DNA of 63,563 nucleotides, counting the filler, from Chrysochromulina tobinii (Eukaryota), in the NCBI GenBank assembly GCA_001275005.1. It is 6 parts of 6 records of this genome, joined end to end, with 100 filler letters (N's around TTAATTAATTAA, not from the genome) between each part and the next. Parts side by side here need not be neighbours in the genome. Positions count along the whole stretch, not along the records: positions 16,339 to 25,623 come from JWZX01000735.1; 5 more parts are not named here. One strand, given 5' to 3'. Of this stretch, positions 2,502 to 60,861 are shown piece after piece. The position numbers were made by a program, and so were the translations under genes. The notes under the pieces are model-generated. The model was not told where the DNA came from. It ran no database searches and saw nothing but the letters and a program-made list of their open reading frames with translations. How positions within the stretch are numbered: position 1 is the first letter of the stretch; every line of letters starts with the position of its first letter.

Positions 2502-5500
2502 TTAGGCAGTGAAGTCCTCCTCCTCCGTCTTCGGCTTGCCCACCTCGGTCGAGACCATCTTCTCAAGCTTGCGCAGCTCGGGCTCGGGCAGGTCGGACTT
2601 ATCGACGTACCTGTGGGAAAGGGAGGAGAGGGCGCCGTGGTGAGCACTTGCATGCAGCCGTCGTGCTCGAGCGCGCCTCCGCCATCTCGAGCTTGGCGAC
2701 GTACCGCTTGGCGACGTATCGCAATCAGAGTTCATCAGAGGTAATCCGATCGAATTGGGGTCGCAATCAATGCCGCGGCACGACGTACCGCTTGAGCGAG
2801 GCAATCAGAGGTCATCAGAGGCAATCAGAGGTCATCAGAGGCCATCAATGCGGCGGCACGACGTACCGCTTGAGCGAGAGAGCGAGGAGCACATCTGCGA
2901 ACTTGACGAGCCCTCCCGGTTTCTCGACCTTGAGCTTCTTCGCGATGGACCTGGCGCTGTTGGCGGCGTCGTCCTCGCCGAAGGTGCCGAGGGGCGGGGG
3001 CACCTTTGCAATGAGCTCCGGCAGCATGCTTTCAGGGAGCTTGTTGTTGGCCTCCGGATCGAGCTCAGCCCATGCTTCCATGAAACCGTCAATGTCGGAG
3101 GGCGAGACGAGGTCGGGGTTCTGTGAATGTGAACAACGACGGGTGGTGGGCATCAGTGGTCATCAAGGGCGATGGTCATCAAGGGTCATCAATGGTCATC
3201 AAGTGATCATCAGTGGTCATCAGTGGTCATCAGTGGTCATCAGAGGTCATCAGTGATCATTTTCGCACCTGCTCGGAGAGCGAGGTGAAGTTCTCGATCC
3301 ATGGTCATCAGAGGTCATCAGTGGTCATCAGTGGTCATCAGTGGTCATCAGTGGTCATCAGTGGTCATCAGAGGTCATCAGTGATCATTTTCGCACCTGC
3401 TCGGAGAGCGAGGTGAAGTTCTCGAGGATCACAGCGACCATCAGGTTGAGGAACACCAACGTGCCGAAGAGCTGGAAGGTGACGAAATACGGGATCGCGA
3501 CCCATGAGCCGCAGTCGACGCCCTCGGTGCACAGGCCGGACTCTTCCTGCACGAGCGAATCTTGGAGCAGCAGCGTCCAGCCGTCGCCGGTCACCGACTG
3601 GAGCAGCAGCAGCATACCTGTGGGGAGAGGAGAGGGCGCCGTGGTGAGCACATGCATGCAGCCGTTGGTCACCGACTGGAGAAGCAGCAGCATACCGTTG
3701 CCCACGGTCTGGAAGTTGCCATCAGTTGCCATCAGTTGCCATCAGTTGCCATCAGTTTCCATCAGTTTCCATCAGTTTCCATCAGTTGCAATCAGTTGCA
3801 ATCAGCAGCATACCGTTGCCCACGGTCTGGAAGTTGCCATCAGTTGCCATCAGTTGCCATCAGTTGCCATCAGTTGCAATCAGCAGCATACCGTTGCCCA
3901 CGGTCTGGAAGTTGGCATGAGATTCGACGTTGTCCTGAAGGACCAACGTCGCGAACAGGTGCATGCCGAGGACGGCATAGATGAACATGACGAGCGCGAG
4001 CAGCGAGCACACGTTGAACACGGGTGGGAGAGAGAGGATGATGGTCGTGACGAGGTCACGCAGCCCCTTGACGCCCTTGAGGATGCGCAGGATCCGCACG
4101 ATCCGGAGCAGGCGGAGCACGCGGAGCAGGAATGGCGGCACCGGCAGGTAGGCCGTCAGGTCCGCCGCGAGGTCGTCGATGAGTGCGGTGCAGACGAGCA
4201 CGAAGTCGAAACGGTTCCAGCCGACCGAGAAGTAGCCTGATGAGGGGGCGCAATCGGAGGTGCAATCAGTCGCAATCAGAGGTGCACTCAATCGCAATCA
4301 GAGGTGCCATCACTGATGAGGGGGCGCAATCGGAGGTGCTCAGTCGTGCTCAGTCGCAATCAGAGGTGCCATCAGTCGCAATCAGAGGTGTGCTCAGTTG
4401 CAATCACGTACCAATCGGGCCGAGCGAGAAGATCTTGAGTGCAAACTCGGTATAGTAGACGCTGATAAAGAAGCGCATCGCGTAGTTGTACGCATCGCCC
4501 TTGGTCATCTCGAAGCCGGAGATCGAGATGAACGCGTCGTCCTCAAACTGGTACGATTTGCACGCCATCAGCAGCGTGTTCAGCAGGATGATCGTGATGA
4601 TGAAGATGTCGAAGTTGACCGACATGACGAGCTTGAAGATGTACATGCGCATCGAGCCTTCGGGCGGCGGCACTCCCTTCATCGGCTTCGCGAGCACAGC
4701 TGTCTTGATCGTCTGGACCCATTGGAGCTGAGCGCCGGTCATGGTAGCCGAGCCCGCGCCCGTCTCGGCGGCGATCGAGTTGAACGTCTCGACGATCGCG
4801 CCGATGAAGAGGTTGAGCGCGATGAAGGCGCCGACGAACATCCACGAGATCGTGAAGAGTGCGGCGGGCGAGTAGTCGTTGCGCACGGGCGCCAGGCCGG
4901 GGCCCTTGGCGGCCATCGCCTGGAACATCTCCGTCTCCCAGAGATCGCCCGAGGTCTGTGTGGAGATCGTGAGGAGATCGTGAGGAGATTGTGGGGAGAT
5001 CGTGGGGGGGATCGTGATGAGTCGTGAGGAGATCGTGAAGAGATCGTGAGGAGGGGGCGGCAAAACAAGGGCGCTCAAGGGCAAATCGATGGCAATCGAG
5101 GGCAATCAACCGGGAGAGCGTACCTGGAGGAAGAGCGCGAGCATCGCCGAGCCGAAGTTGTCGAAGGAGTTGCCTGGAGGGTTCTCCCACGTGTTGCCCG
5201 CCGTCACGCACTCCTCGACGGTGGCGATGGTCGGATCCTCCGTGCACATCGCGAAGGTGCCGGCGAACATCTGCATACCGAGGATGGGGCAAAGTCGGCA
5301 ATCAAGGGCAATCAAGGGCGATCAAGGGCGATCAAGGGCATCAAGGGCAATCAAGGGCACTCAAGGGCAAAGTCGGCAATCAGAGAGGCCGTCAGAGGCC
5401 GTCAGAGGGCCATCAAGGGCAATCAAGGGAGATCGCACCTGCATGCCGAGGATGGCGAAGACCGCTTGGATGAAGAGGTAGACGGCAAGCACATTCATGA

Positions 5501-8500
5501 CGGCCGGGATCGAGGCGATGAGGGTCGCGACGATCACTTTCATCGACTCAATGCGACCGACGAGCCGCAGGGGGCGGAGTGCACGGAGCACGCGGAGGGA
5601 CTTGAGGGGGGCGAGCGCCTCAATGTCGAGCACTTCCGCGGCGATGACGGTGACGGAGACGAGGACGATGGCGAAGTCGAGTTGGTTCCAGCCGTTCTTG
5701 AGGTAGGCTCGCTCGGTGAAGAGGAAGCCATAGGCGATGATCTTGAGGAGCGCCTCGGTCACGAAGATGGCCTGATGAGGGGGGCAATCATGCGGCCCAT
5801 CAGAGAGGCCATCAGAGCAGCCATCAGAGAGGCCATCAGAGAGGCCATCAGAGAGGCCATCAGAGAGGCCATCCGAGAGGCCATCAGAGAGGTCATCAGA
5901 GAGGCCATCAGAGAGGCCATCAGAGAGGCCATCAGAGAGGCCATCCGAGAGGCCATCAGAGAGGTCATCAGAGAGGCCATCAGAGAGGCCATCAGAGAGG
6001 CCATCCGAGGCCATCTGAGAGGCCATCCGAGAGGCGATCAGAGATGTTCACAGCTCCAGCGGCACGCACCGTGAACACGTAGTTGGTGAGCGTCAGCTGG
6101 GCTTCGAGAGGCGATTCGGGGTCAAGGAGTGGCGAGTCGATGGCGAGCGAGACCGACGAGGCGATGATGATGAACAGGATGAACATCTCAAAGTTCGGGT
6201 GACGCACGAACCACTCGCAACACCTGTGGAAGACATGGCGAGTGCGTCATCAGCGCGTCGTCAGCGCGTCATCAGCGCGTCATCAGCGCGTCATCAGCGC
6301 GTCATCAGCGCGTCGTCAGCGCGTCGTCAGCGCGTCGTCAGCGCGTCATCAGCTTACCTGCGAATGCCGTTGCGCGGGCCGAAGAGGCAGAGCGAGTGCT
6401 CCTGGGGCCATGGCAATCAACGGCAATCAACGGCAATCAACGAACCACTCGCCTCACCTGCGAATGCCGTTGCGCGGGCCGAAGAGGCAGAGCGAGTGCT
6501 CCTGGGGCCAGGGCTTCTCGACGAGCAGGTCAGACTTGGGCGGCGGCTTGGGTGGCTCCTCCACGGGGATCGGCTCCTCGCCTGGGGGGAGGGGGGGGAG
6601 CGCCGTGGTGAGCACTTGCATGCAGCCGATCGAGCCGGCTGTTCGACGGGGATCGGCTCCTCGCCTGGCTCGGGCTCCTCTTCCTCGCCGAATGCCGAGA
6701 GCACCATGCCTGCACGCAGAAAGGGGGGGGGGCGAGTGTGGGGGGGGGCGATGAGAGCAGCCGGCGGGGAAGGGGGAGCGATGAGTGTGGCCAGCGGAAG
6801 CCTTCGGTGCTATCCATGGCAATCAACGTCAATCAACCGTAATCCATGGTAATCAACGGGAGCGTACCGATGAAGATGTTCATGATGAAGGGACGCAATC
6901 AGCGGCAATCAATCAGCATGCAATTCGAGTCTGCGTACCGATGAAGATGTTCATGATGAGGAACGAGCCGACGCACATGCAAGGCACAAAGTACCAGAGG
7001 ACCTTGGGGCCGAGCACCGCCGAGGCAGCGAGAGAGGAGTCGACCCACTCGCCCGTGAACAGGATGAAGACCGAGATCAGGCCGGGCACGAAGTGGTCGA
7101 AGTTGGCGTAGTATGGGTGCTCCTCGAGGTCCGGGTTGGGGCAGACGGCGCCCGGGCAAGGCACCTCGGAGTAGCCAGCATCCTCGGTGTAGATGCCGCC
7201 GAAGAACTGTGGCGCAGGGGATGGTCAGGAGCGGTCAGGAGCGGTCAGGAGCGGTCAGGAGCGGTCAGGAGAGGTCATCAGCGGTCAGGAGAGGTCATCA
7301 GCGGTCAGAAGAGGTCATCAGCGGTCATGATCAGCGGTAATCAGGAGACATCCATTGCGTCAAATGGATGCCGAGGCAATCAAGGGACCATCAAGGGACC
7401 ATCAAGGGAGATCAAGGGAGATCGCACCTGCATGCCGGCGAGCACGAAGACGAGCATGAAGAGGAAGGTGACGATCCCGAGCGACGAGATCTTGGGGAAG
7501 ACGCGGATGAGGGTCGCCACGATGCTATAGAGCCCTTTCCACGACTGCATCAGGCACGGGGGACGCGCTGTGGTGAGCACTTGCATGCAATGCAGGCCGT
7601 CCGCATGCAATCACGATGTTATAGAGCCCTTTCCAAGACTGCACGGCGCGCTGTGGTGAGCACTTGCATGCAATCAACGCACCTTCATCAGGCGCAGGGC
7701 ACGCGCGATCCGAAGGAGACGCAGCATCCGAAGGAAGGAGAGCTGCGGAATCTCGCCGTCCGCGAAGACCGTGAGCACCTCCGTCACGAGGATCTCGAAG
7801 AGGGAGAGGAGCACAATCGTGCCGTCGAGCACGTTCCAGTTGTCCGCCCAGTAGCCGCCGCAACTGATGAGGGAGGCAATCAGGCAGGCCATCAGTGCCA
7901 ATCAATGGCATAGAGTGTTCCAGTTGTCCGCCCAGTAGCCGCCGCCCCCGAGGCGGAGGAGCTTGAGTAGCTTCATCAGTGGCAATCAATGGCAATCAGT
8001 GGCAATCAGTGGCAATCACCCGAGGCCGAGGAGCTTGAGTAGCTTCATCAGTGGCAATCAGTGGCAATCAATGGCAATCAGTGGCAATCACCCGAGGCCG
8101 AGGAGCTTGAGTAGCTTCATCAGTGGCAATCAGTGGCAATCAGTGGCAATCAGTGGCAATCACCCGAGGCCGAGCAGCTTGAATAGCTTCATCAGTGGCA
8201 ATCGATGGCAATCAGTGGCAATCAGTGGCAATCACCCGAGGCCGAGCAGCTTGAGGAACATCTCGAAGGCGAAGAGGAGCGTGATGACGAGACCGACGGA
8301 CTCGAGCTGCGCCGCATACCTGTGGGGAGAGGAGAGCGGGAGTTTCGTCAAGGAGAGCGCGCCGTGCTGAGCACTGGCATGTGCGGGGAGGGGGGGGGTT
8401 CGGACGAGTTCGGGCTGGGCCGTTTACTCCTCGCTCATGCCCGCGTATGGCATGCACATCAGGACCATGTTGATCTGTGAAGAACCGTGTGAAGGGCCGG

Positions 8501-10970
8501 AGTTACGCGCGCCGTGGTGAGCGTGGGCGTGGGAGTTGCGCATCGGACATGTCGATAGCAATCAATGGCAATCAATAGCAATCAACGGCCATCAATGGCA
8601 ATCAATGGCAATCAACGGCAATCAATAGCAATCAACGGCCATCAACGGCCATCAATGGCCATCAACGGCCATCAACGGCCATCAATGGCCATCAACGGCG
8701 GATCAACAGCAATCAATAGAAATCAACGGCCATCAATGGCCATCAATGGCCATCAACGGCGGATCAACAGCAATCAATAGAAATCAACGGCCATCAATGG
8801 CAATCAACGGCGGATTAACGGCAGACCCGCGATCTTGAACGAAAGTCACCGAGCTGTTGCCGAGGCCATCAACGGCACTCAATGGCTACTCAATGGCAAA
8901 ATCACTTGCAGTCAACGGCAGTCAACGGCAATCAATGGCAATTGCAATCACTTGCAGTCAACGGCAGTCAACGGCACTCAAGGGCAATTGCAATCACCAG
9001 CACGAGAGCGATCGAGCAGTTGCCAAGGAAGGCTGAGTTGGCAACCTTCTCCATGAACCCAGGCTCCGCCGAGGGCTGTGAAAGCTTCTTAGAGGAGGCC
9101 GTTGCGTCCATCTCCGCAGCGCGCTTCTCCATCTCCGCGGCGGCCAGGTCGACGCGGCCGAGCTGCGTGAACTCCTCGAAGAGGACGGCGAGGAAGAGGT
9201 TGCGCACCTGTGGGGAAGAGAGAGGGCGCCGTGGTGAGCACGTGCATGCAGGGCGCGTGCACGGGCAGGAGGTGGTGACTCACGAAGCAGCCCGAGATGA
9301 TGATGACGCCGAGGTAGTAGAGGACCACCTGATGAGGGAGGCGATTGAGAGGGTCATCAGACGTGATGAGGGAGGCGATTGAGAGGGTCATCAGACGTGA
9401 TGAGGGAGGCGATTGAGAGGGTCATCAGACGTGATGAGGGAGGCGATTGAGAGGGTCATCAGACGTGATGAGGGAGGCGATTGAGAGGGTCATCAGATGG
9501 GTCCTCGAAGGGACACATGAGTGGCCATCAAACGCCTTCGGTCCAGGCCATCAGAGGTCATCAGAGGCCATCAGAGATCATCAGAGATCATCAGAGGCCA
9601 TCAGAGGCCATGCCTTCAGAGGCCATCAGAGGCCATCAGAGGTCATCAGATGCCACCAGTGGTCATCAGAGGTCATCAGTGGCGCTCGTACAAGGCTCGA
9701 GCCGGTGTAGTCCATGAGCGCAAACATCGAAGTCTCCCAAGTGTCCCACGTGGACGTTTGCATCAGCGTGACCGAGGCCATGAGCACGCTGTCGTAGGAC
9801 ATCATGTTGTTGAACGGCTGTGACTCGAAATACGCGCACGTCTGGTCCGCTTCGCACATATCGCCCTCCGGATTGCAGGCAACTTCAGTGTCGAAGTCGG
9901 CTTCGTCAGAGACGCCCGGCTTGAAGCCCTTGAGCGCGCACCTGCATGCAATGAGGGAGCCCATCAGCTGAGTTGGCCAATTAGGGACGCCTGGCTCTGC
10001 ATGCAATGAGGGAGCCCATCAGCTGAGTAGGCCAATTAGGGACGCCCGGCTCTGCATGCAATGAGGGAGCTCATCAGCCGAAAAGGCCAACGACAGCCGT
10101 CCAAAGCGCCGTCTCGAGCGCTCGCACCGGTAGTGGAGCATGCCATCAGCAATCAGGCGCAATCATGCGCAATCAGGTGCAATCAGGCGCAATCAGCAAT
10201 CAACAATCAGGCGCAATCAGCAATCGGACGCACCGGTAGTGGAGCATGCCCTGGAAGAGCTCCATGCCCACGATGCCGAAGACGACGAACACGAAGATGA
10301 AGAGCATCGTCACGTTGCCAAGCTTCGGAATCACGTCCATGATGCCCTCGACGATCACCTTGAGGCCGGGGATGATCTTCATCGCGCGGAGCGCACGGAA
10401 TGCGCGGAGCGCTCGGAGCGAGTTGACGTTCGGCAGGTCGATGCCCGTCAGCAGGATCGGCGCCCACGCGCACGACACCACCACGAAGTCAAGTTGGCAC
10501 CATCCATCGTGCAGATAGCAGTTCTTGTTGCCGATGATGCCGTACGCCAGCATCTTGAGGAGCATCTCGACCGTGTAGGCGTACAGGAAGAAGACTTCCA
10601 GCTGATCAATGAAATCCGCCTTCCACGTGCCGGGTGGGTCCATCGGAGACTCCCACGCCATCACGCTCACGTTGAGCAGGATCACCATTAGGATCAACGG
10701 ATCGAACCACCAAGTGTTGATGAACTCAATCGCCCAATTGCGCGGGATCATGTCCGGCTTCAGGCAAAGGAGCGACACGCCATTCGGATCATAGGTGCGG
10801 CCATCGGGCCTAATGATCTCGACCGGCTGTACAAAGCCAGAACCCTTGGGCGTCTTCGGCGCCGCACCCTTGCCGCCAGGCGCCGCACCCTTGCCGCCAG
10901 GCGGTGAGGGCGGCTTGCTTGGTGGTTTCTTTGCATCGGTCGGCGGCGACTTTGGATCCTTGGGTGCCAT
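2502..10970 (-). CDS. Four-domain voltage-gated cation (Cav/Nav family) channel alpha subunit, 19 exons, about 1404 aa
   Basis: Exons read by hand: 10970-10234, 9941-9692, 9328-9284, 9207-8998, 8474-8428, 8319-8236, 7863-7683, 7544-7428, 7206-6939, 6709-6665, 6581-6458, 6223-6070, 5771-5439, 5270-5124, 4955-4412, 4236-3892, 3617-3397, 3120-2867, 2610-2502. They total 4215 nt with consistent phases; 17 introns are GT-AG and one is GC-AG. Four S4 segments (LRALRAFRALRAMK, LRMLRLLRIARALRLMK, LKSLRVLRALRPLR, LRVLRLLRIVRILRILK), four pore loops, NLFLAV/NIFIG/NLFIGA/NLMVAV S6 motifs and a C-terminal EF-hand-like WAELDP...PPPLG region. Confidence 0.93.
5798..6030. repeat. Intronic 12-bp microsatellite (GAGGCCATCAGA)n
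   Basis: Read directly; lies in channel intron 6069-5772. The sense-strand unit is TCTGATGGCCTC. Confidence 0.95.
9331..9497. repeat. Intronic 34-bp tandem repeat, 5 copies, each carrying an acceptor-like CCTCCCTCATC word on the sense strand
   Basis: gatgagggaggcgattgagagggtcatcagacgt starts at 9331, 9365, 9399, 9433 and 9467. Confidence 0.95.
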
Positions 10971-16238: not shown

Positions 16239-16338
16239 NNNNNNNNNNNNNNNNNNNNNNNNNNNNNNNNNNNNNNNNNNNNTTAATTAATTAANNNNNN
16301 NNNNNNNNNNNNNNNNNNNNNNNNNNNNNNNNNNNNNN
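16239..16338. other. Artificial contig linker
   Basis: 44 N + TTAATTAATTAA (stops in all six frames) + 44 N. Confidence 0.99.
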
Positions 16339-17231
16339 TTGGCCTTGCGTTCTTCCCCCCGACCGGCCCCGCCGCCGTCGGACGCGCCAGTGTCCTCCTT
16401 CGCGCTGAGCACCGCGAGCTCGAGCCCCGCCCCCGTCGCGGCCTTCAGCTCGCGCACGACCACATCGAACGACGACTTCACGCGCGCCGCGTCGGAAAAG
16501 AGCACGGCCGCGACGCCCGCCTCGTCGCGCTGCTCGGCGACGGCGGGCTTCTCGATCGCGGCGTCGAGGTCGCCGACCGCCGCCTCGTACTTGGCCATGC
16601 CGTCCGCGTCGCCGCTCTTGATCACATTGAACACGCTCCCGTAGACCGACTGAAAGTCCTTGTTGCCCGCATCGATCGCCGTCTGGCACGCCTTGACCAT
16701 CGCCTTCGCCGCCTCCTCGCCCACGCCCTCGGTGCGCCTTTTAATCTCGGTGGCCATCACCTGATCCACCACGGCGAGCTGCGCACCCAGCGCGTCGACG
16801 GCCTCCTTGGAGTCTGGGGCGCGCGCCACGTTCAGCTCGAGGCCGTGCAGCAGGGCGCACGCTGCCTCGATGGCTTCGGTCTTGGCCAGTGTCTTAAAGG
16901 TATTGAGCGCCTCGGGCAGCTTGGCCGCGTGCTCGTCGTCGCCTTCCGTGGCCGCCGTCGACTTCATTGGGCCCAGCGCCTCGGCCGCCCTCTTTTGAAG
17001 CGGCCGGAGCGCTTCGGGCACCTCGGACCGGGCCTCGACCTCGCCAACCGGCGGCGTCTCGCCCTGCTTGGCCCCCTGCTCGAGCAGCCAGCGCCCCAGA
17101 TAGGTGAGCGGCCATTTTTCCGGCCGCGCGTCAGCCAGCGCATTGATGGCGGTGCTGAGAGCCGCCTCGAGCCTATCGCAGTGCTGGTCGACGAACGCAT
17201 TCCGCGCCTGCACGTCGCGTGCGGCGCGCAT
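16339..17231 (-). CDS. Hypothetical protein with an N-terminal Dpy-30/RIIa-like dimerisation motif, 3' truncated
   Basis: LEAALSTAINALADARPEKWPLTYLGRWLLEQ resembles the Dpy-30 motif. The frame is open to the linker. Confidence 0.6.
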
Positions 17232-17706
17232 CCGTCGACGCGCGGGAACAGATTCTCGGAGCCTGCCCTGCCTCACCGGTCCGGACCAACAGCGCCGGCT
17301 CACGACCGGCCCTTAAAATCGAAGATTTCACACAAAAACTGCCGAATCGAAGATGTCGGTTCATGATCACCCAATTATCACCGCACAATCTCTTGATTAG
17401 AACTTTCGAGGCTATTTTCAGACGAGGCGTCTTATCCCGCGATTGAATTATCTCCGAGTCAACAATAGCACAGGACCGCTGCGCGTGCGTCCGCCCCTCT
17501 CACAGCATGCCTTGCTTAGTTTTTTGGCATGCATTCACCGAGGCGATGACAACTTTTCTGGACCTTTCCGTTACACGCTCCTGCCCCGGAAACCGCTCTT
17601 GCGACCGGGGCTCCACTTGAACAAGGTAACCCTCCGGCCCGCTTGCTTGCGGGCCCTCCTGGCGCCCCTAGCTGGTGGCCCGTTCAACGGCAGGGGGCCC
17701 ATCTCC

Positions 17707-20700
17707 ATGGAGGCCATACGCACCTTGTGCAGCCCGCATCCGTGGGAGGAGGACCCCGCCGTGTTCGCGAGCGCCCTCGGTCAGCTCGCCGAAGTGGCGG
17801 CGATGGCGGACCTCGAGGATGCAAGCAAGCTGAGCAAGGCGGCCCGCGAGGCGGGCGCCCTGCAGCTCTGCTGCGACGCCGTGCGCCACGAGAGCGCGCG
17901 GGTGCATCAGCCGGCGCTCGCGGTGCTCGTCTGCTTCACGACCACGGAGGTCGACCCGGACGCGCACCTGAACCGAGCGATCGTGTCGGCGCACCCGCGC
18001 GGCTTCGAGGGCGTGGTCGAGCGGCTCTTCTCCGACGTGCCGCTCACGGTCGCCTTGGCGTGCGGCGCGCTGCAGAACCTGTGCCGCTCGGACGTTGCGC
18101 ACGTCGCCATGCTCTCCACATGCGGCGGCACCGAGCGGCTTCGATCGCTGACGATGTGCGGCCAGGACGGGATCGCCGTCGCGGCGAATGCATGCCTGAC
18201 GAACCTGCTCGGCTGGCATCGTGCCGCCTCCCGGGTACAGCTGCGATCGCTGATTGCCACTGATGACCGGCCTTTGCATGCAAGTGCTCATCGCAGCGCG
18301 CGTCCGCCTGGCAGGTCCAGCTGCGCTATCTGCGCCACCAGCGGCGCGTCATGGGCTTGCAGCTCAGGCGCATGAGTCATCTGAAGATGACGTCATTACC
18401 TAATTTGGGACGAGCTGCGCCCGCCCTCATCACCCTCGACGGCCAGCCCTCTCTCGCGACGGCCAGCCCGATTGTAAGTGCTCACTACGGCGCCGGGCCG
18501 CCCAGCATGCAAGTGCCCACCACGGCGGCGACGGCCAGCCCGGGCCCACCCTCGGTTTGCATCGCGCTCGTGCTCTTCAACCTTGTCGTGGCGTCGGCGG
18601 ACCAGGCTGAGTACCAGGCTGATGGCGCTCGAGACGGCGCTCGAGGTGGGAACGGTGCCCGGAGCCGATCCATCACGGATCCTAATTTGGGAGACCTCAC
18701 GGATCCTAATTTGGGAGACCTCGCGGATTTTCGAGCAGCACCGCCTCCTCCACCGCCAGCACCTCCTCCGCCGCCACCGCCGCCCGGGCTCCTCGCAGAG
18801 CAGTCGACCATCGCCGCCGCGGCGGCGGAGGCGCAAGCGGCCAGGGCCGACGCCGCAATGCAGAAGGTCGTGGTGGCGCGAGCGGCAGCAGCGGCTACAG
18901 CGGCGGCGGCGGCGGAGGCGGCCGCCGCCGCCGCGTCCACCGAGCCGCATGCCACTCCCAAAAAGGGACTTTCGTTGTTCAAGAGCGCTGGTCGGGCGGC
19001 GCTCACCGCCAATGCGATGCGACTGGAGCAGATACAGCGAGGTGATTGCATGCTGATTGCCTCCCTACTCATCGCCAATGCGATGCGACTGGAGCAGATA
19101 CAGCGAGGTGATTGCATGCTGATTGCCTCCCTACTCACCGCCAATGCGATGCGACTGGAGCAGATACAGCGAGGTGATTGCATGCTGATTGCCTCCCTAC
19201 TTGCATGCGACTGGAGCAGATACAGCGAGGTGATTGCATGCTGATTGCCTCCCTATTTGCATGCAATGCGAAGCGACTGGAGCAGATTCAGCGAGGTGTC
19301 GAGGAGCGGCGGCGTGCGTCCTAAATATGAGTGCATGCTGATTGCCTCCCTACTTGCATGCATGCACAGGAGTCGAGGAGCGGCGGCGTGCGTCCTAAAT
19401 ATGAGTGCATGCTGATTGCCTCCCTACTTGCATGCATGCACAGGTGTCGAGGAGCGGCGGCGTGCGTCCGCCTTGGCGGCCGAAATGTTCCGTCAAGCGG
19501 TGGCGTCGGAGCAGGCGGCGGCGGCGGAGGCGGCTCGCCTTGAGGCTGAGGAGCAAGCGAACGCTCGCAAGGCGGCCTTGGAGGCTGCACTGGCGGAGGT
19601 TTGATGAGCTTATGATGACCAATGATTGCCTCCCTCATCAACTCTGATGATGGCCCCTGATGCCCACATTGATTGCCTCCCTCATCACAGGTGGCCGCGG
19701 AGGCGGAGCGTGCACGCACGATGATTGCCTCCCTCATCAGCTCTGATGCCCACAGTGATTGCCTCCCTCATCACAGGTGGCCGCGGAGGCGGAGCGTGCA
19801 CGCACGGCAATGCATGCGGCGGCTGTTGCCAAGTGGGGAAAGGTAATCGCCTCTGATTGATGCCTCTGCCGGCTGCGCTTGAGTGCCCCTTCCTTAAGTG
19901 CCCCTGAGTGCCTGTATGCCTCGGAGTGCCGCTGAGTGCCCCTGAATGCATCTGAGTGCTTCACTCATTCGCTCGCCGTGGTCGACTGCGGACAGGCCGC
20001 GGCGTTGCAAGAAGCCGAGGCGGCGCGTACTGCGAGCGAGGTCGCTGTGGAACAGGTGATTGCATGCTGATTGCCTCCCTCATCAGAGGTCGCTGTGGAA
20101 AAGGCGCGGCTCCGCGTGGCTCGACGAGATGGCGCGGAGGTCTGATGATACTCTGATGAGCTGATGAGCTCTGAGGACCTACGATTGCCTCCCTCATCAG
20201 GCGCGGCTCCGTGTGCTCGACGAGGTGATTGCATGCTGATTGCCTCCCTACTTGCATGCTGATTGCCTCCCTCATCAGGCGCGGCTCCGCGTGCTCGATG
20301 AGGAGGCTGCACGTGCGACGGCGGAGGAAGCCGCGGCCGAGGCGGCTGCGAGGGCGTCGGAAGCGGCCGCGCGCGAGGCGGCCGCGTCGGCCGAAGCCGC
20401 CGCTGCCCGTGCCGCCGCGTCGGAGGCCAAAGGCGAGGCGGCGCTGATGGCGTCGGAGCTCGAGGCGAGATCGTCGGAGCTCGAGGCGAGATCGGCGGAG
20501 CTCGAGGCGAGATCGGCGGAGCTCACGATCTCGATGGAGCTCCGGCGGGAGGTTGAGCGTCGGGCCGCCGAGGAGCTCGAGGCGTGCCGTTTGGCGGCGC
20601 ACGCGGCGGCGCGCACGCGGCAGGCCGAGGTGAGGAGCCTGATTGCCATTGATTGCCTCTCTCATTGCATGCACGCGGCAGGCATTACGATTCTTTGTGT

Positions 20701-23597
20701 CCCGAGCCCTATTCCAAACCCTCACCCGAAGCAAAATCCTGAGCCTGCCCCCCTGGGCCTTGTGACATTGGGTGATGGCTTCGAAGGAACATGATTGCAT
20801 GCTGATTGCCTCCCTACTTGCATGCCTTCATAGGTGATGGCTTCGAAGGCGAGGCTCGCCGTCGCCGCATCGGGTCGCGAGCGTTTGGAGGAGACCCTCC
20901 GAAGGGCTGAAGGTCAGTTGAGCGAGGCCCAAGCTCAAGCGCAGGCCGACGTCCTGGCGAGGCTGGCGGCGGAGGAGGCGGCGGGGCGTGCGGCGGCGGC
21001 GGCGGAGGCGGCCGAGGCGCGGGCGCTCGCGGCCGAGGCGCTGGTGGTGCGTACGGAGGAGATGACGTCTGATTGCCTCCCTCATCAGCTCTGATGATGG
21101 CCTCTGATGCCCACAATGATTGCCTCCCTCATCACAGGTGCATACGGAGGAGATGACGGCCAGCCGCTTAGCCGCCGCAGAGGAGGAGGCAGCACGTGAG
21201 CCAGCTTCCGTGATGAGCATAAGAGTTTGAATGTGCTTGTGATGAGGGAGGCAATCACTGTGGGCATCAGAGGCCATCATGAGTTTGAATGTGCCTACGA
21301 TCGCCTCTGATGGCCTCCCTCATAAAGCACGGCCGCTGAGGGGCTATCCTCTGATTGCCATGGATGGCCTATGATTGCATCTGATGGCCTCTCTCATCAG
21401 GCACGGCCGCCCAGCTCCTCTGTGAATACGAGACCGCCGAGGCGGAGCGAAGGTGTGAATACGAGGCAGCCGAGGAAGAGCGAAAGCGTTGCCTTGATGA
21501 ATGGGGTGCAAAGATGGCGCAGGCGGAGGCGACGGCGGCGGCGGCGATTGAGGACGCAAACCTGCGTGTGATGGAGGCGGAGGCGGAGGCGGAGGCGCGG
21601 GCCGCGGCGGTGGCGCGAGAGAGTGCGGCTGCAGTCCAAGCAGCGCAGGTTTGATGACCAACTGATGGGCCTCTGATGGTCCCTCTGTTGGGCCTCTGAT
21701 TGGCCCTCTGATGGGCCTCTGATTGGCCCTCTGATGGGCCTCTGATGGCACACTGATGACCAATTGATGGCCCACTGATGACACACTGGTGGCCCTCATT
21801 CTGTTTCCGATCTGAGTGCCTTACGATTGCCATCTGATCGCCACCTTTCTGATTGCCCCCCTCATTGCATGCAGGTTGGCGCGGCCCGCCTGTTGGAGGA
21901 AGGCCTCGCGGCTGCCTGCTGATTGCCACCCTCATTGCATGCAGGTTGGTGCGGCCCGCCTGCTCGAGGAAGGCCTCGCGGCTGCCAAGGCATCGGAGGC
22001 AGCGGCCGTGCAGCATGCAATTGACGAATCCTCAGCCAAAGAGGCCGCCCAAAGCGCGCTCGCAATCGCCTCCGCGCGACACCTGAGCTCGCAAGCGGAG
22101 CTCGAATCTCAAATCGAGAGATTGCGAGCGGAGCTCGAATCTGAAGCTGCAAGATTGCAATCTGAGCTCGCGGAGCGGACGACCGAGGTGGCGCGCCTGT
22201 TCGCAGCCCTGAGCCGTGAACAGCAGGAGTGCCAGGCGCTGCAGGCGAAGGTGCTGCGAGGCGCGCGGCTGGCGTCGGCGCATACGCTCGAGTTGGCGGC
22301 GCTGCGGGGACGGCTCGCGCGGCGCACGATCCAGATGGCGGCCTTGGAGGAGGAGGTACGTGACGCAACCCAAGTGTCACCCGAGTGCCTCTGATGGAGT
22401 CTTGATTTCCTTGGAGGTTTGTGAATGCCACCTAATTGGAGGCACCTGATTGCCACTTAATTGCCACCTGATCGCCACCTAATTGCCACCTGATCGCCAC
22501 GGATTGCGGCCACACACACCGATGTCGAAGAACGGCCTTTGCTTGCATGCACATAGGTGCGAGCGACGCAGCTCGTCCTAAACATGATTGCATGCTGATT
22601 GCCTCCCTACTTGCATGCACATAGGTGCGAGCGACGCAGCTCGTCCTAAACATGATTGCATGCTGATTGCCTCCCTACTTGCATGCACATAGGTGCGAGC
22701 GACGCAGCTCGTCCTAAACATGCGAGATTGCGACGTGCATGCACTCAAGGCGCTCTTGCACGCCCGGGCGTCGCCGCCCACATCCCCCTCTCTCGGGCCT
22801 CATCTCGGCCCTAATCTCGGGCCTAATCTCGGGTCTCATCTCGGGCCTAATCTCGGGCCAGCGTGGTCAACCTCGGCCCCCGCACGCGGCCCGGCGCGTT
22901 CGAGCACAGGCTTGGTCTCAGGTCTCGTCAGCACAGGCATGGTCTCAGGTCTCGTCGAGCACTCGCGCCAAGTCGAGGCCGCCAGAGGCAATCTGTACAC
23001 TCACATGCAATCCCATGCCCTCCGCGGCCTGATGACCGACGCGAGGCCCAAGCCTCCCAACACGGCGCTACACAACCTCCTCGGTGCAGACTCATCCTCG
23101 GATGCTTCCGCTGCCGCCGCCGCCGCCGCTACCGCCGCGCCGGCTGCCGCTGCGTTCATCGCTGTGGACTCGCCCAATACAGCGCTCCAGCCCCCACCGT
23201 CGCTGCCTCGGCTACACGTAGCGCCGCCCCGTGCCGGAGCTGCACCGGAGATCGCGCTCGCAGCAGGTCCAGGCGCCGTACTGGGCGCCGGCGCAGGTCA
23301 CTCATGTGCATGCACCGGGGGAGCAGGTCACTCGTGTGCACGCATCTCGATGGGAGGTTGCATCTCGATGGGAGGGCTCTCGCCGTCATCAAGCCCCCCT
23401 CCCGAGATGCCACCTCCCGAGGAGGAGATGCGTTGGAGATCGCGAGCTCGCCCCCCCGCGCCCGAGCGAGCTCGCGAGCTCCACAGCCGAGCTCGCAATC
23501 TCAACCGAATCTCGATGCTCCTCGCCGACGAGATGCTCCAGGTGGGCGTCGTGGTGGGCAGCAACAAGGAGGACGGCGTGGCGGGCGGCGCCGGCGC

Positions 23598-23633
<36 letters not shown>

Positions 23634-23868
23634 AGTGGGTGTGGGTTTGGGTTTGGGGACAGGCGGTGCCGCTGGCGGCGGAAGGCTCGGAAGCTCGATC
23701 TCGCTGCCTTCCCTCGGATCTCATCCAATCTCGTCCGATCTCCATCGGATCTCGCTACCCTCCGTCGGAGCTGCCCATCGAGTGGGCGAGAGGGTGAGTG
23801 AGCGACTGGCGGCGCGAGAGCGAGAGCGCACACGGCTCCCGCCGAGGCTCCCTAGGCGCAAGGTGTGA
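17707..23868 (+). CDS. Large ARM-like/coiled-coil hypothetical protein, about 11 exons, about 1330 aa
   Basis: Exons read by hand: 17707-18234, 18315-19041, 19444-19598, 19777-19842, 19996-20055, 20279-20629, 20834-21046, 21138-21195, 21401-21648, 21945-22355, 22693-23868 (3993 nt, phases consistent, GT-AG introns). The N-terminus is ARM-like (LACGALQNLC, ANACLTNL) and the middle is an Ala/Glu coiled coil. Exon 2 may hide a further intron. Confidence 0.75.
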
Positions 23869-24112
23869 ACGTGAATGCGCAAGGCTCCCTAGGCGACAGC
23901 AGCAGCGGCCGCGCCGCCGCCGGGGGCGCACTAGGGATCTAGGGTAGACTAGTTGCCAGTCACCACCTTTTTATGCGAACATGCTCTTACTGCGCTGTAG
24001 CGTGTAGGTCTTCTGGCTCTGCTAAATGAGGATATATTGTCTTGTCTTAACCCTAATATTACGACCTTTACCCTGACCCTACTGAACACAGCACGAATTA
24101 TAATTGTCAAGA

Positions 24113-24176
24113 TGTGTGAAGTTGCCCTTGTAAGTAATTGTCAAAATTAGGCAACTTACAAGAGCAACTTCACACA
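24113..24176. repeat. Near-perfect hairpin: 23-bp arms, 1 mismatch, 18-nt loop
   Basis: tgtgtgaagttgcccttgtaagt (24113-24135) pairs with acttacaagagcaacttcacaca (24154-24176). Confidence 0.9.
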
Positions 24177-24416
24177 CACAACAGGAGCACTCCACACAAC
24201 CGAAGTCAGTAGTCATCACAACCCAGGGTGCCTGCCCAGCCAGTCAAGAGTTCACACGCCAGCCAGTTCACACGCCAACGTCTAGACGGAGCATGCAATT
24301 GACGACTTGGTGCTCTCGAGGTCGACTGCTGGTAGACTGGTGCTCTCGAGGACGACTGGTGCTCTCGAGGTCATAATCATGTGTGCACTCGAGTCCAGAG
24401 CACTCTCGACAGCCGC

Positions 24417-25623
24417 TCAACCTAGATCCAGCTGTGTCAGCATCCTGTTCACTTTCCATACCGCAACCAACGCATTGCTGCCATCTGCGCCGAGGCTGTT
24501 GCTGCCCATGCCGAGGTGCTTCAGCGTCGTGTTCGTCTTGAGCGCCACCGCGAGCGCCTTGCCACTCTTCGCGCCGAGCTTGTTGCCACCCAAGTCGAGC
24601 TGCGCCAGCGTCGTGTTCGCTTGGAGCGCCACCGCGAGCGCGCAGCCGCCCGCATCGCCTAACTTGTTGTTCTTGAGGCTCAGCTGCGTCAGCGTCGTGT
24701 TCGTCTTGAGCGCGTCCGCCATCGCCTTACCGCTCTCCGCGCCGAGCTCGTTGCCCCCCAAGTCGAGCTGCGTCAGCGTCGTGTTCGTCTGGAGCGCCGC
24801 AAACATCTTCAGGCCCTCGCCATCAGTCAACTTGTTCTCTCGCAGGCTGAGCGACGCCAGCCCACGCATCAGTTGCGCCACCACAGCGACCATCGTCGGC
24901 CGATCTCCCCCAATGAGCTTCTGGCTCAGGTCGAGCACATCTCCCACCCCGGCCGTCCGCTTCAGCCCCTTGCCAAAGGCGTCGCCCATCTCGCTGCCGA
25001 GCGTGACCGCGTTGGCCCAAAACGCCGGCCATTGCCACGGCGGCGGCGACCCCTCAGGGAGGTGGTACTTGCCCGTGCAGATGGCTCGTGCGGCAAAGTA
25101 CTCTTGGAAGGAGAGGTGCGACGACTGCATCTCAAGCGGCTCGACCTGCAGCAGGCTGAGAAGAGGGAGCCTATCCTGCAACACGCGCTCGCGAACCTGC
25201 GCGACCGCCGCCCGCTCCTCATCCCGCAGCGCCTGGACCGCACCTTCCAGGGCAGGAAGGACCATGCGCTGAAGACGCGGTGCGAACGTTAATGAGCCGG
25301 CCCCGAATGCACAGCACGATGGCGTACGGCCGGCGGCACCACCACCGTCGCCTCCACCATCACCTCGGCTATCACCACAGCCTTCTCCACCTTCGCCACC
25401 TTCACTTTCGCCACCTCCGTCTCCTCCTCTATCACCCCCTCCGTCACGCCCTCCGAGCGCCTGCGCCACGTGCTCGACCGCCACCTTGGCCTCGACCCCC
25501 GCCTTGGCCTTGGCCTCGACCGCCGCCTTGGCCTCGGCAGTGGGCTTACCCAGCCGCGTGCTGTGTACCTTGCCCATCGACTGCGCGACGACGGGCGGTG
25601 CTGCAGCAGCTGCTGCATGGGTG
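24417..25623 (-). CDS. NLRC3-like protein: post-NACHT helical region plus RI-type leucine-rich repeats, 5' truncated
   Basis: HLSFQEYFAA motif followed by 28-aa LRRs (LKTNTTLTQLSLKNNKLGDAGGCALAVA). A probable acceptor lies near 25268 and the upstream exon structure is uncertain. Confidence 0.85.
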
Positions 25624-25723
25624 NNNNNNNNNNNNNNNNNNNNNNNNNNNNNNNNNNNNNNNNNNNNTTAATTAATTAANNNNNNNNNNNNNNNNNNNNN
25701 NNNNNNNNNNNNNNNNNNNNNNN
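25624..25723. other. Artificial contig linker
   Basis: 44 N + TTAATTAATTAA + 44 N. Confidence 0.99.
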
Positions 25724-36929: not shown

Positions 36930-37029
36930 NNNNNNNNNNNNNNNNNNNNNNNNNNNNNNNNNNNNNNNNNNNNTTAATTAATTAANNNNNNNNNNNNNNN
37001 NNNNNNNNNNNNNNNNNNNNNNNNNNNNN
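36930..37029. other. Artificial contig linker
   Basis: 44 N + TTAATTAATTAA + 44 N. Confidence 0.99.
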
Positions 37030-51604: not shown

Positions 51605-51704
51605 NNNNNNNNNNNNNNNNNNNNNNNNNNNNNNNNNNNNNNNNNNNNTTAATTAATTAANNNNNNNNNNNNNNNNNNNNNNNNNNNNNNNNNNNNNNNN
51701 NNNN
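51605..51704. other. Artificial contig linker
   Basis: 44 N + TTAATTAATTAA + 44 N. Confidence 0.99.
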
Positions 51705-60761: not shown

Positions 60762-60861
60762 NNNNNNNNNNNNNNNNNNNNNNNNNNNNNNNNNNNNNNN
60801 NNNNNTTAATTAATTAANNNNNNNNNNNNNNNNNNNNNNNNNNNNNNNNNNNNNNNNNNNN
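60762..60861. other. Artificial contig linker
   Basis: 44 N + TTAATTAATTAA + 44 N. Confidence 0.99.

What the first reader, a model, noticed from the sequence alone, without database searches (positions are those of the whole stretch)
19042..19443. Ordered gradient inside one intron: upstream copies, then junction copy, then downstream copy
Seen: three copies of the upstream exon end plus donor, then a 49-nt spliced-junction copy (19273-19321, 1 mismatch), then a copy of acceptor plus downstream exon start, then the real acceptor. Each piece is separated by TGCATGCTGATTGCCTCCCTA. Intron 20056-20278 is similar, with a junction copy at an AG|GC join although its donor is GTGATT. Inference: the colinear order suggests that an originally intron-less site was copied several times with a constant cassette added each cycle, like a stuttering templated polymerase.
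Basis: partly seen in the sequence, partly recalled or inferred. Interest (0 to 1): 0.8.

Follow-up and report, generated by a model that had tools for sequence, protein, structure and literature searches.

The report
Intron birth scars in an alga
This intron in a gene of a Chrysochromulina-type alga holds ordered copies of its own exon ends and of the uninterrupted exon junction, close relatives appear to lack it, and it was likely born and enlarged in steps by short duplications filled with splice signals copied from other introns, a pattern that recurs in many of this alga's predicted introns and makes intron gain testable.

Summary
Intron 19042-19443 holds three copies of the upstream exon end, a 58-nt copy of the spliced junction (2 mismatches) and one copy of the downstream exon start, separated by six cassettes. 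It is not a one-off: of 359 predicted introns from this organism and close populations, 199 carry copies of their own flanks, 28 a junction copy, and 38 are simply an 18-42-nt copy of the next exon plus an acceptor cassette (shuffles: 0-1). Read-through proteins from other samples form an allelic ladder at this site: no intron (9 sequences), stop after the downstream copy (2), cassette plus junction with 0, 1 or 2 upstream units (4), and junction-less forms (6). So the site was intron-less and was built in steps, not in one stutter; the order follows from tandem geometry. The acceptor cassette carries a tag from another intron of the same gene. Best reading: target-duplicating insertions of copied intron 3' ends, then slippage. 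Template (DNA or intron RNA), enzyme and direction of the first step are unresolved; no long reads or RNA span this intron. Not found in ten paper searches or in earlier scan notes.

The parts
17707..23868 (+). Host gene, predicted 1330 codons and 10 introns; Ala/Glu-rich, no confident Pfam family in the N-terminal part of two relatives
   Evidence: open frame after removing 10 GT-AG introns; 87-90% identity to P0125, P0126, P0165-67, P0169-70 over the N-terminal ~400-460 aligned residues
19002..19041 (+). Upstream exon end (U), source of the 5' copies
19042..19443 (+). The intron, 402 nt, GT-AG, absent in close relatives
   Evidence: frame; P0165-P0172 and P0174 uninterrupted; splicing not shown by RNA
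19042..19067 (+). Donor (first 3 nt equal the downstream exon start) and cassette 1
19068..19110 (+). U copy 1 (-40..+3), 1 mismatch
19134..19176 (+). U copy 2 (-40..+3), exact; with its cassette a 66-nt tandem unit
19205..19232 (+). U copy 3 (-25..+3), exact
19264..19321 (+). Junction copy (-32..+26), 2 mismatches; inferred remnant of the intron-less site left between two duplications
   Evidence: read-through in P0121, P0122, P0127, P0136
19322..19367 (+). Acceptor-type cassette with a 5' tag shared with intron 22356-22692
19368..19395 (+). Internal acceptor and downstream-exon copy (-2..+26), 1 mismatch; 74-nt tandem unit
19396..19443 (+). Second tagged cassette with branch-like motif, pyrimidine run and the real acceptor
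19444..19469 (+). Downstream exon start (D), the 26 nt that are duplicated
22356..22692 (+). Intron of the same gene, likely template of the tagged cassette; the tag derives from its own downstream exon at 22710-22722
   Evidence: 13-nt motif found 5 times, all in this gene, in 95 sequences
20056..20278 (+). Second intron of the gene with junction copy (20086-20118) then downstream copy
20630..20833 (+). Intron with the same cassette variant and a 17-nt downstream copy; spliced out in an RNA contig
   Evidence: run X17 record 23 joins 20627 to 20832
18235..18314 (+). 80-nt intron that starts with a short copy of the next exon; absent in 12 related sequences, read through in 3
7864..8235 (-). 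Intron of a voltage-gated channel gene with the same layout: three U copies, junction copy, acceptor cassette
   Evidence: boundaries from spliced alignment to P0002; parse
21223..21294 (-). 44-nt antisense cassette between 14-nt direct repeats; 35 nt match the 3' end of intron 19599-19776 exactly

Best explanation
The intron holds ordered copies of its exon ends and of the uninterrupted junction, and it was likely built in steps: a repair event at staggered nicks would duplicate 20-45 nt of exon and fill the gap with the 3' end of another intron, usually of the same gene, copied by a template switch. Step 1 (inferred): at the intron-less AG|GT site, 26 nt of downstream exon are duplicated around a cassette copied from intron 22356-22692; the first copy supplies the GT donor, the cassette supplies branch point and AG, and the protein is unchanged. 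Step 2 (inferred): a second such event duplicates the upstream exon end plus 3 nt around another cassette, which moves the donor outward and strands the original junction in the middle. Step 3 (copy-number variation shown at protein level, mechanism inferred): slippage or unequal crossing-over multiplies the 66-, 56- and 74-nt units across each splice site, and recombination between cassettes deletes the middle in some alleles. In exons only events that splice out cleanly would survive. Shown: anatomy, recurrence, allele series, same-gene tag. Not shown: enzyme, DNA versus RNA template, splicing of this intron, direction of step 1.
For: Allele ladder from read-through proteins: uninterrupted in P0165-P0172 and P0174, which end where the frame runs into intron 19599 and lie on contigs up to 9417 nt, so they read as genomic; ending right after the 26-nt downstream segment with no donor-side cassette in P0125, P0126; cassette plus junction in P0122, P0136, with 1 extra unit in P0121 and 2 in P0127; no junction copy in P0123, P0124, P0128, P0130, P0131, P0135. 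The tree orders them intron-less / P0126 / P0125 / cassette group with supports 100/99, 99/96, 100/100. Step-1 form in 38 of 359 introns (33 loci), duplication 18-42 nt, 36 of 38 ending in one of two acceptor cassettes; step-2-type form in 13 of 359; junction form in 28 of 359 (21 loci); shuffled flanks 0-1 of 359; distal exon windows 2 of 172 against 92 of 172. Intron start equals downstream exon start over 6 nt or more in 73 of 359 against 5.3 in shuffles. Independent of my gene model: 110 of 192 acceptor cassettes have an upstream copy of what follows them, against 0-4 in random pairings; 10 of 18 homology-fixed channel introns and 3 of 4 transcript-fixed introns of L080 carry copies. Same-gene copying: private 18-mers shared within a gene in 32 of 293 pairs against 5.2 expected; tag with 5-nt microhomology unique to this gene.
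Against: No DNA of the other alleles was seen; P0125 and P0126 could end at a contig end or a point stop, or be recombinants. The tree has only a midpoint root, which places the intron-less group inside the step-1 group, so exact loss between the 26-nt repeats fits as well as gain for that step. 261 of 293 private 18-mer pairs are between different genes, so copying in trans or convergence of the repeats is common. No excess microhomology at the acceptor join (1.53 against 1.51 nt). Inner-older test is weak: 4 against 1 for upstream arrays, 2 against 2 for downstream arrays, and p=0.07 for this intron. The gene model is my own, self-trained, and missed 1 of 18 channel and 1 of 4 L080 boundaries that were in its first training set. 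Loci were picked by the cassette; among 275 introns without the search pattern 132 carry copies, 17 junction copies, 23 the step-1 form. No RNA contig crosses this junction.
Confidence: 0.5

Rival explanations
1. Same stepwise history, but the filler is copied from excised intron RNA by target-primed reverse transcription: a bottom-strand nick primes on the intron's 3' AG end, copying stops at a variable point, and a second nick 18-42 nt away makes the duplication.
For: Fixed 3' end at the acceptor and ragged 5' end in the 38 step-1 introns. The four antisense cassette hits inside predicted introns (3 loci), where splicing of the host gene cannot select the end, also stop at the acceptor and sit between direct repeats. 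Same-gene sharing is flat from under 0.5 kb to 4 kb (8/232, 8/252, 10/330, 5/252) and lower in neighbouring genes (2 of 235, p=0.05).
Against: No reverse transcriptase or partner element was looked for or found. 101 of 129 upstream or junction copies are not preceded by the type-A cassette end. Sense bias of 399 to 4 is not expected of priming in trans (strand calls partly depend on the cassette). Neighbouring genes on the other strand would lower sharing under a DNA model too. No Rfam match reached a gathering score.
Confidence: 0.25
2. The intron is old and simple (the 39-43-nt junction-less form); the junction copy was patched in later from spliced mRNA or cDNA, and the relatives lost the intron exactly.
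For: Six alleles lack the junction copy; the midpoint root allows loss; a partly spliced transcript could supply both junction and tag.
Against: 0 copies of another intron's junction in 2262 same-gene pairs; donors match the downstream exon start far above chance; P0125 and P0126 appear to carry the downstream stop without the donor-side cassette; junction copies are the most diverged class.
Confidence: 0.1
3. A trans-acting introner or SINE-like family inserts the cassettes, and same-gene likeness reflects bursts of insertion at one time.
For: Two cassette types end 236 of 359 introns; marine Chrysochromulina MAGs have introners (10.1101/2022.06.06.494994, passages; PMC9860276 supplement rows).
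Against: No fixed length, no fixed short duplication; only the last 20-45 nt are shared; the tag comes from an exon of the same gene. C. tobinii and C. parva occur only in the table of screened genomes in the held, truncated supplement.
Confidence: 0.08
4. One stuttering polymerase run copied the site several times, adding a cassette each cycle.
For: Colinear order; only 5 substitutions in about 400 nt; shorter alleles could be deletion products of one large array.
Against: Half-way forms are common genome-wide and appear at this site in relatives; spacers of two origins; junction copies older than single-side copies.
Confidence: 0.05
5. Misassembly of short reads through a high-copy repeat.
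For: No contig of three runs covers the junction copy or spans the intron; two loci identical elsewhere differ by a 65-nt unit (L022/L041), so unit counts can be assembly errors.
Against: A second assembly is identical; four proteins from other records encode cassette plus junction; 28 other junction copies, with private mismatches.
Confidence: 0.02

Closest known systems
Intron gain by tandem duplication of an AG|GT proto-splice site (ATP2A1, PMC3265369; Drosophila, PMC2891723)
   Same: A duplicated exon segment supplies a splice site and the protein is unchanged.
   Different: There the intron is the duplicated exon itself and cases are rare (1 of 252 candidates in PMC3265369, Discussion read). 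Here the duplication is only 18-42 nt, a copied intron end supplies branch point and acceptor, events recur at one site, and 79 of 359 predicted introns keep such a scar.
Introners that carry one splice site and take the other from the target duplication (10.1101/2022.06.06.494994; PMC11282704; PMC12130899)
   Same: Many introns share sequence; one splice site is carried, the other co-opted from a target duplication.
   Different: Described cases have short fixed duplications (3-8 bp in the passages read; 4 bp, 5' site carried, in Chrysochromulina sp.) and family-wide likeness. Here duplications are long and variable, the 5' end is ragged, only the 3' end is shared, and the source is biased to the same gene.
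[quoted passage not shown]
   Same: Direct repeats flank a filler; the focal filler joins through 5 nt of microhomology to a nearby template.
   Different: Daphnia fillers have no known source (PMC3265369, Discussion); here the filler is nearly always an intron 3' end.
Non-LTR retroelement or SINE insertion by target-primed reverse transcription (general features recalled, not from a call)
   Same: Fixed 3' end, truncated 5' end, variable duplication.
   Different: No poly(A) or simple tail, longer duplications, strong sense bias, no partner element known.

Membership tests
Tandem-duplication (proto-splice site) intron gain | Duplicated exon segment that contains or starts at the AG|GT site | tested here: met
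   junction copy and 26-nt downstream copy; 38, 13 and 28 of 359 introns
Tandem-duplication (proto-splice site) intron gain | Protein unchanged relative to the intron-less allele | tested here: met
   predicted spliced frame matches P0165-type sequences across the site
Tandem-duplication (proto-splice site) intron gain | Intron made only of duplicated exon sequence | tested here: not met
   six non-exonic cassettes of 23-48 nt; 36 of 38 step-1 introns end in a cassette
Introner (transposon-derived intron family) | Many near-identical full-length copies | tested here: not met
   unrelated introns share 30 nt or more in 0.6% of 3000 pairs; step-1 introns are 63-182 nt with unique 5' parts
Introner (transposon-derived intron family) | Short target duplication of fixed length | tested here: not met
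   18-42 nt in 38 introns; my detection floor was a score of 13, so shorter ones are not counted
Introner (transposon-derived intron family) | Terminal inverted repeats | not tested
   no search for inverted repeats at intron ends; the cassette folds into a weak internal hairpin, z -1.7 to -2.0
Introner (transposon-derived intron family) | Autonomous partner element | not testable with these tools
   no whole genome is held
Non-LTR/SINE insertion (TPRT) | Fixed 3' end, variable 5' end, variable duplication | tested here: met
   for step-1 introns; not for most upstream copies
Non-LTR/SINE insertion (TPRT) | Poly(A) or simple-repeat 3' tail | tested here: not met
   inserts end in the acceptor AG
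Non-LTR/SINE insertion (TPRT) | Insertion in both orientations where unselected | tested here: inconclusive
   399 sense to 4 antisense in predicted introns; strand calls are partly circular and most copies may descend from exon insertions
Break-repair filler (NHEJ/TMEJ) intron gain | Filler templated from nearby DNA with junction microhomology | tested here: inconclusive
   5-nt microhomology and same-gene tag here; no excess at the acceptor join in 38 introns
Break-repair filler (NHEJ/TMEJ) intron gain | Dependence on polymerase theta or ligase IV | not testable with these tools
   needs knock-outs

The most novel reading that the evidence does not exclude
Excised spliceosomal introns act as their own mobile templates in this alga: their 3' ends are reverse-transcribed into staggered nicks of the gene that made them, each insertion duplicates 18-42 nt of target and takes its donor from the duplicate, and every new intron can seed the next. 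This would be a self-propagating, element-free route to mass intron gain, still segregating in lake populations.
Probability: 0.25. Interest if true: 0.93.

Novelty: new variant of a known kind. Interest (0 to 1): 0.76.

Why it matters
How new spliceosomal introns arise is a long-standing question; duplication-born introns are known from a handful of cases and mass gain is credited to transposons. Here about a fifth of predicted introns (79 of 359) keep a readable birth scar with a long target duplication and a copied acceptor, and one site shows intron-less, half-way, expanded and collapsed alleles. A culturable alga with such alleles would allow intron birth, its template and its enzyme to be tested directly. 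Screens that look for families of near-identical introns would likely miss this class. It also warns that copies of splice junctions inside introns can mislead gene annotation and read mapping in these genomes.

Tried and rejected
No whole genome is held, and the records behind the loci are not searchable, so statistics rest on 89 of 133 fetched loci plus the 6 window contigs, 435,981 nt; 44 loci were dropped as duplicates, alleles, copies of this contig, two probable transcript contigs and one contig from a bacterial bin. The cassette has 0 matches in viral contigs and 1 in prokaryote genomes. Rfam gave three sub-threshold matches only. RNA runs X16 and X17 hold 7% of the words and do not cross the junction; run X21 gave one partial contig. 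The idea that the cassette variant is unique to this gene failed narrowly: 8 of 9 copies are here, 1 is in L118; the longer tag is unique. The idea that all cassettes end at the acceptor failed for upstream copies. cDNA as general template: 0 of 2262. The window row dropped out of the tree because my read-through shifted frame in intron 18235; 13 of 27 sequences were used. My first coordinates for five introns (four of the host gene, one of the channel gene) were off by 1-3 nt and were corrected. Ten paper searches found no description of this layout; passages of PMC4580454, PMC2784329, PMC3152781 and PMC12130899 had nothing on it. The Emiliania huxleyi genome paper is not held; I recall it reporting 10-11-bp repeats in introns, unchecked. 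The PMC9860276 supplement was cut when stored and bioRxiv supplements are closed, so an introner call for these species cannot be excluded. Four look-ups of earlier scan notes gave nothing on this layout.

Full report
Setting. The window is six contigs joined by N-linkers; the finding lies on 16339-25623. A channel gene in the window has its closest hits in clusters that hold Chrysochromulina tobinii and C. parva proteins, so the organism is a haptophyte of that group. No whole genome is held.

Observation. The 21-mer occurs six times exactly in the intron and 13 times in the window at up to 3 mismatches, against none in 100 shuffles. The intron parses as donor plus cassette, upstream-exon copies at 19068-19110, 19134-19176 and 19205-19232, a 58-nt junction copy at 19264-19321 with 2 mismatches, a tagged cassette, an acceptor plus 26-nt downstream copy at 19368-19395, a second tagged cassette and the acceptor at 19443. 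Removing it and nine other introns leaves 1330 open codons. One of those, 20630-20833, is spliced out in an RNA contig; this intron is not covered by RNA. A second assembly with other contig ends is identical. Contigs of three DNA runs confirm the flanks and several inner joints but leave 19074-19092 and 19264-19320 uncovered.

It is a general pattern. In the channel gene, whose 18 introns I fixed by spliced alignment to P0002 with two boundaries corrected by hand (1405 codons, one stop), 10 carry flank copies and intron 8235-7864 repeats the focal layout. In L080, 3 of 4 introns fixed by the spliced contig L012 carry copies in order. A scan for the cassette returned 135 stretches of about 810 estimated. 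Without any gene model, 110 of 192 acceptor cassettes have an upstream copy of the sequence that follows them, against 0-4 in five random pairings and 7 of 146 downstream windows; some of the 192 are units inside arrays. With a self-trained gene model on 95 sequences, 199 of 359 introns carry flank copies, 28 a junction copy of at least 10 nt on each side, 38 start with a downstream copy and 13 end with an upstream copy; shuffles give 0-1. The three scar classes together are 79 of 359. Order is colinear in 34 of 36 mixed pairs and 17 of 19 introns. Limits: the model errs (1 of 18 and 1 of 4 known boundaries), and loci were chosen by the cassette; among the 275 introns without the search pattern the counts are 132, 17 and 23.

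The simplest unit. The 38 step-1 introns are an 18-42-nt copy of the downstream exon, starting at GT or GC, then a filler with a ragged 5' end and a fixed 3' end at an acceptor; 28 end in cassette type A, 8 in type B, 2 in neither. This is an insertion with a long target duplication whose first copy gives the donor. Across all introns the start equals the downstream exon start over 6 nt or more in 73 of 359 against 5.3 in shuffles. A second duplication on the upstream side strands the old junction between two cassettes (inference), and junction copies are indeed more diverged, 5.4% against 2.0% and 3.0%. The inner-versus-outer test within arrays was weak (4 against 1; 2 against 2).

Alleles of this very site. 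Two protein searches with the flanking exons returned 6 and 7 hits, and cluster look-ups added members. They are read-through translations, so they report intron structure. Of 26 sequences listed: nine (P0165-P0172, P0174) run straight through the site and end where the frame enters intron 19599, as the window's does, on contigs up to 9417 nt, so they read as intron-less genomic alleles; two (P0125, P0126) have no donor-side cassette and end after the 26-nt segment, where the tagged cassette begins with a stop; P0122 and P0136 have cassette plus junction, P0121 one extra unit, P0127 two; six (P0123, P0124, P0128, P0130, P0131, P0135) go from cassette to acceptor with no junction copy; P0133 ends within the cassette, P0134 starts within it, and P0129, P0132 and P0173 do not cover the site. 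The tree of 13 long rows runs intron-less, P0126, P0125, cassette group, each step starred. This fits stepwise building. It does not fix direction: the midpoint root would make the empty site an exact loss between the 26-nt repeats. I saw no DNA for these records. Intron 18235-18314 is also absent in 12 of them and read through in 3.

Source of the cassette. The acceptor-side cassette begins with a tag that matches the exon after intron 22356-22692 and that intron's own downstream copies; the 13-nt motif occurs 5 times, all in this gene, and the join uses 5 nt shared by both exons. Private 18-mers are shared within a gene in 32 of 293 pairs against 5.2 expected, flat with distance; most pairs are still between genes. 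An antisense 44-nt copy of the end of intron 19599-19776 sits between 14-nt repeats at 21223-21294. No intron holds another intron's junction (0 of 2262), which argues against spliced cDNA as the usual template.

Mechanism. Most likely (0.5): staggered nicks, template switch to another intron's 3' end on DNA, duplication of the target, selection for clean splicing, then slippage and recombination of units. The same history with excised intron RNA as template gets 0.25: fixed ends in the three antisense loci favour it, while ragged ends before 101 of 129 upstream or junction copies and the 399 to 4 sense bias do not. cDNA patching of an old intron 0.1, a trans-acting family 0.08, one stuttering run 0.05, misassembly 0.02. 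The stepwise history itself, common to the first two, stands at about 0.75.

Comparison. It works like tandem-duplication intron gain (PMC3265369, abstract and Discussion read; PMC2891723, passages) but fails its feature that the intron is only exon sequence. It works like introners that co-opt a splice site from a target duplication (10.1101/2022.06.06.494994, passages; PMC11282704, passages; PMC12130899, passages) but fails fixed short duplications and full-length family likeness. It resembles break-repair gains (PMC3296678, PMC3488318, passages), with a known filler source. In the held part of the PMC9860276 supplement, C. tobinii and C. parva appear only as screened genomes. Ten searches found no account of this layout; subscription papers and closed supplements were not seen.

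Verdict. Real, general in this organism, a new variant of intron gain by target duplication with captured acceptors. Interest 0.76.

Noticed in passing
window 16239-16338, 25624-25723, 36930-37029, 51605-51704, 60762-60861: N-linkers show that the window is six joined contigs; neighbourhood across them is not biological.
   Followed up: yes
window 2502-10970, minus strand: Four-domain voltage-gated channel gene, 1405 codons, 18 introns, several filled with 10-12-nt tandem repeats; one GC-AG intron (6664-6582) starts with a copy of the next exon.
   Followed up: yes
window 21223-21294: Antisense cassette between 14-nt direct repeats, copied from an intron 1.5 kb upstream and ending at its acceptor; similar antisense cases in L029 and L107.
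   Followed up: partly
L040 4001-4416; L003 4001-4350: Arrays of up to 7 units, several of which each run from GT to AG; they could be removed one by one (recursive splicing). Untested.
   Followed up: no
window 19042-19176: The 66-nt upstream unit is an open, in-frame reading; alleles P0123, P0128, P0130 and P0131 stay in frame through the whole intron, so retention might be tolerated there.
   Followed up: no
L059/L090, L060/L069, L107/L111, L015/L088: Allelic loci about 1-4% apart differ by whole cassette-plus-exon units of 37-75 nt; polymorphism or assembly collapse.
   Followed up: partly
gene model over 95 sequences: 51 of 356 predicted donors are GC; a second cassette type with a different branch motif ends 50 of 359 introns.
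   Followed up: no
window 18673-18728: A 24-nt coding repeat varies in copy number among the related proteins; the relatives also carry a 21-nt in-frame duplication ending at the intron site, without cassette.
   Followed up: no
L133: A contig in a bacterial genome bin holds the cassette; probably algal contamination.
   Followed up: no
L118: Another gene with the same cassette variant and a two-step layout: downstream copy, cassette, short junction copy, second cassette.
   Followed up: partly
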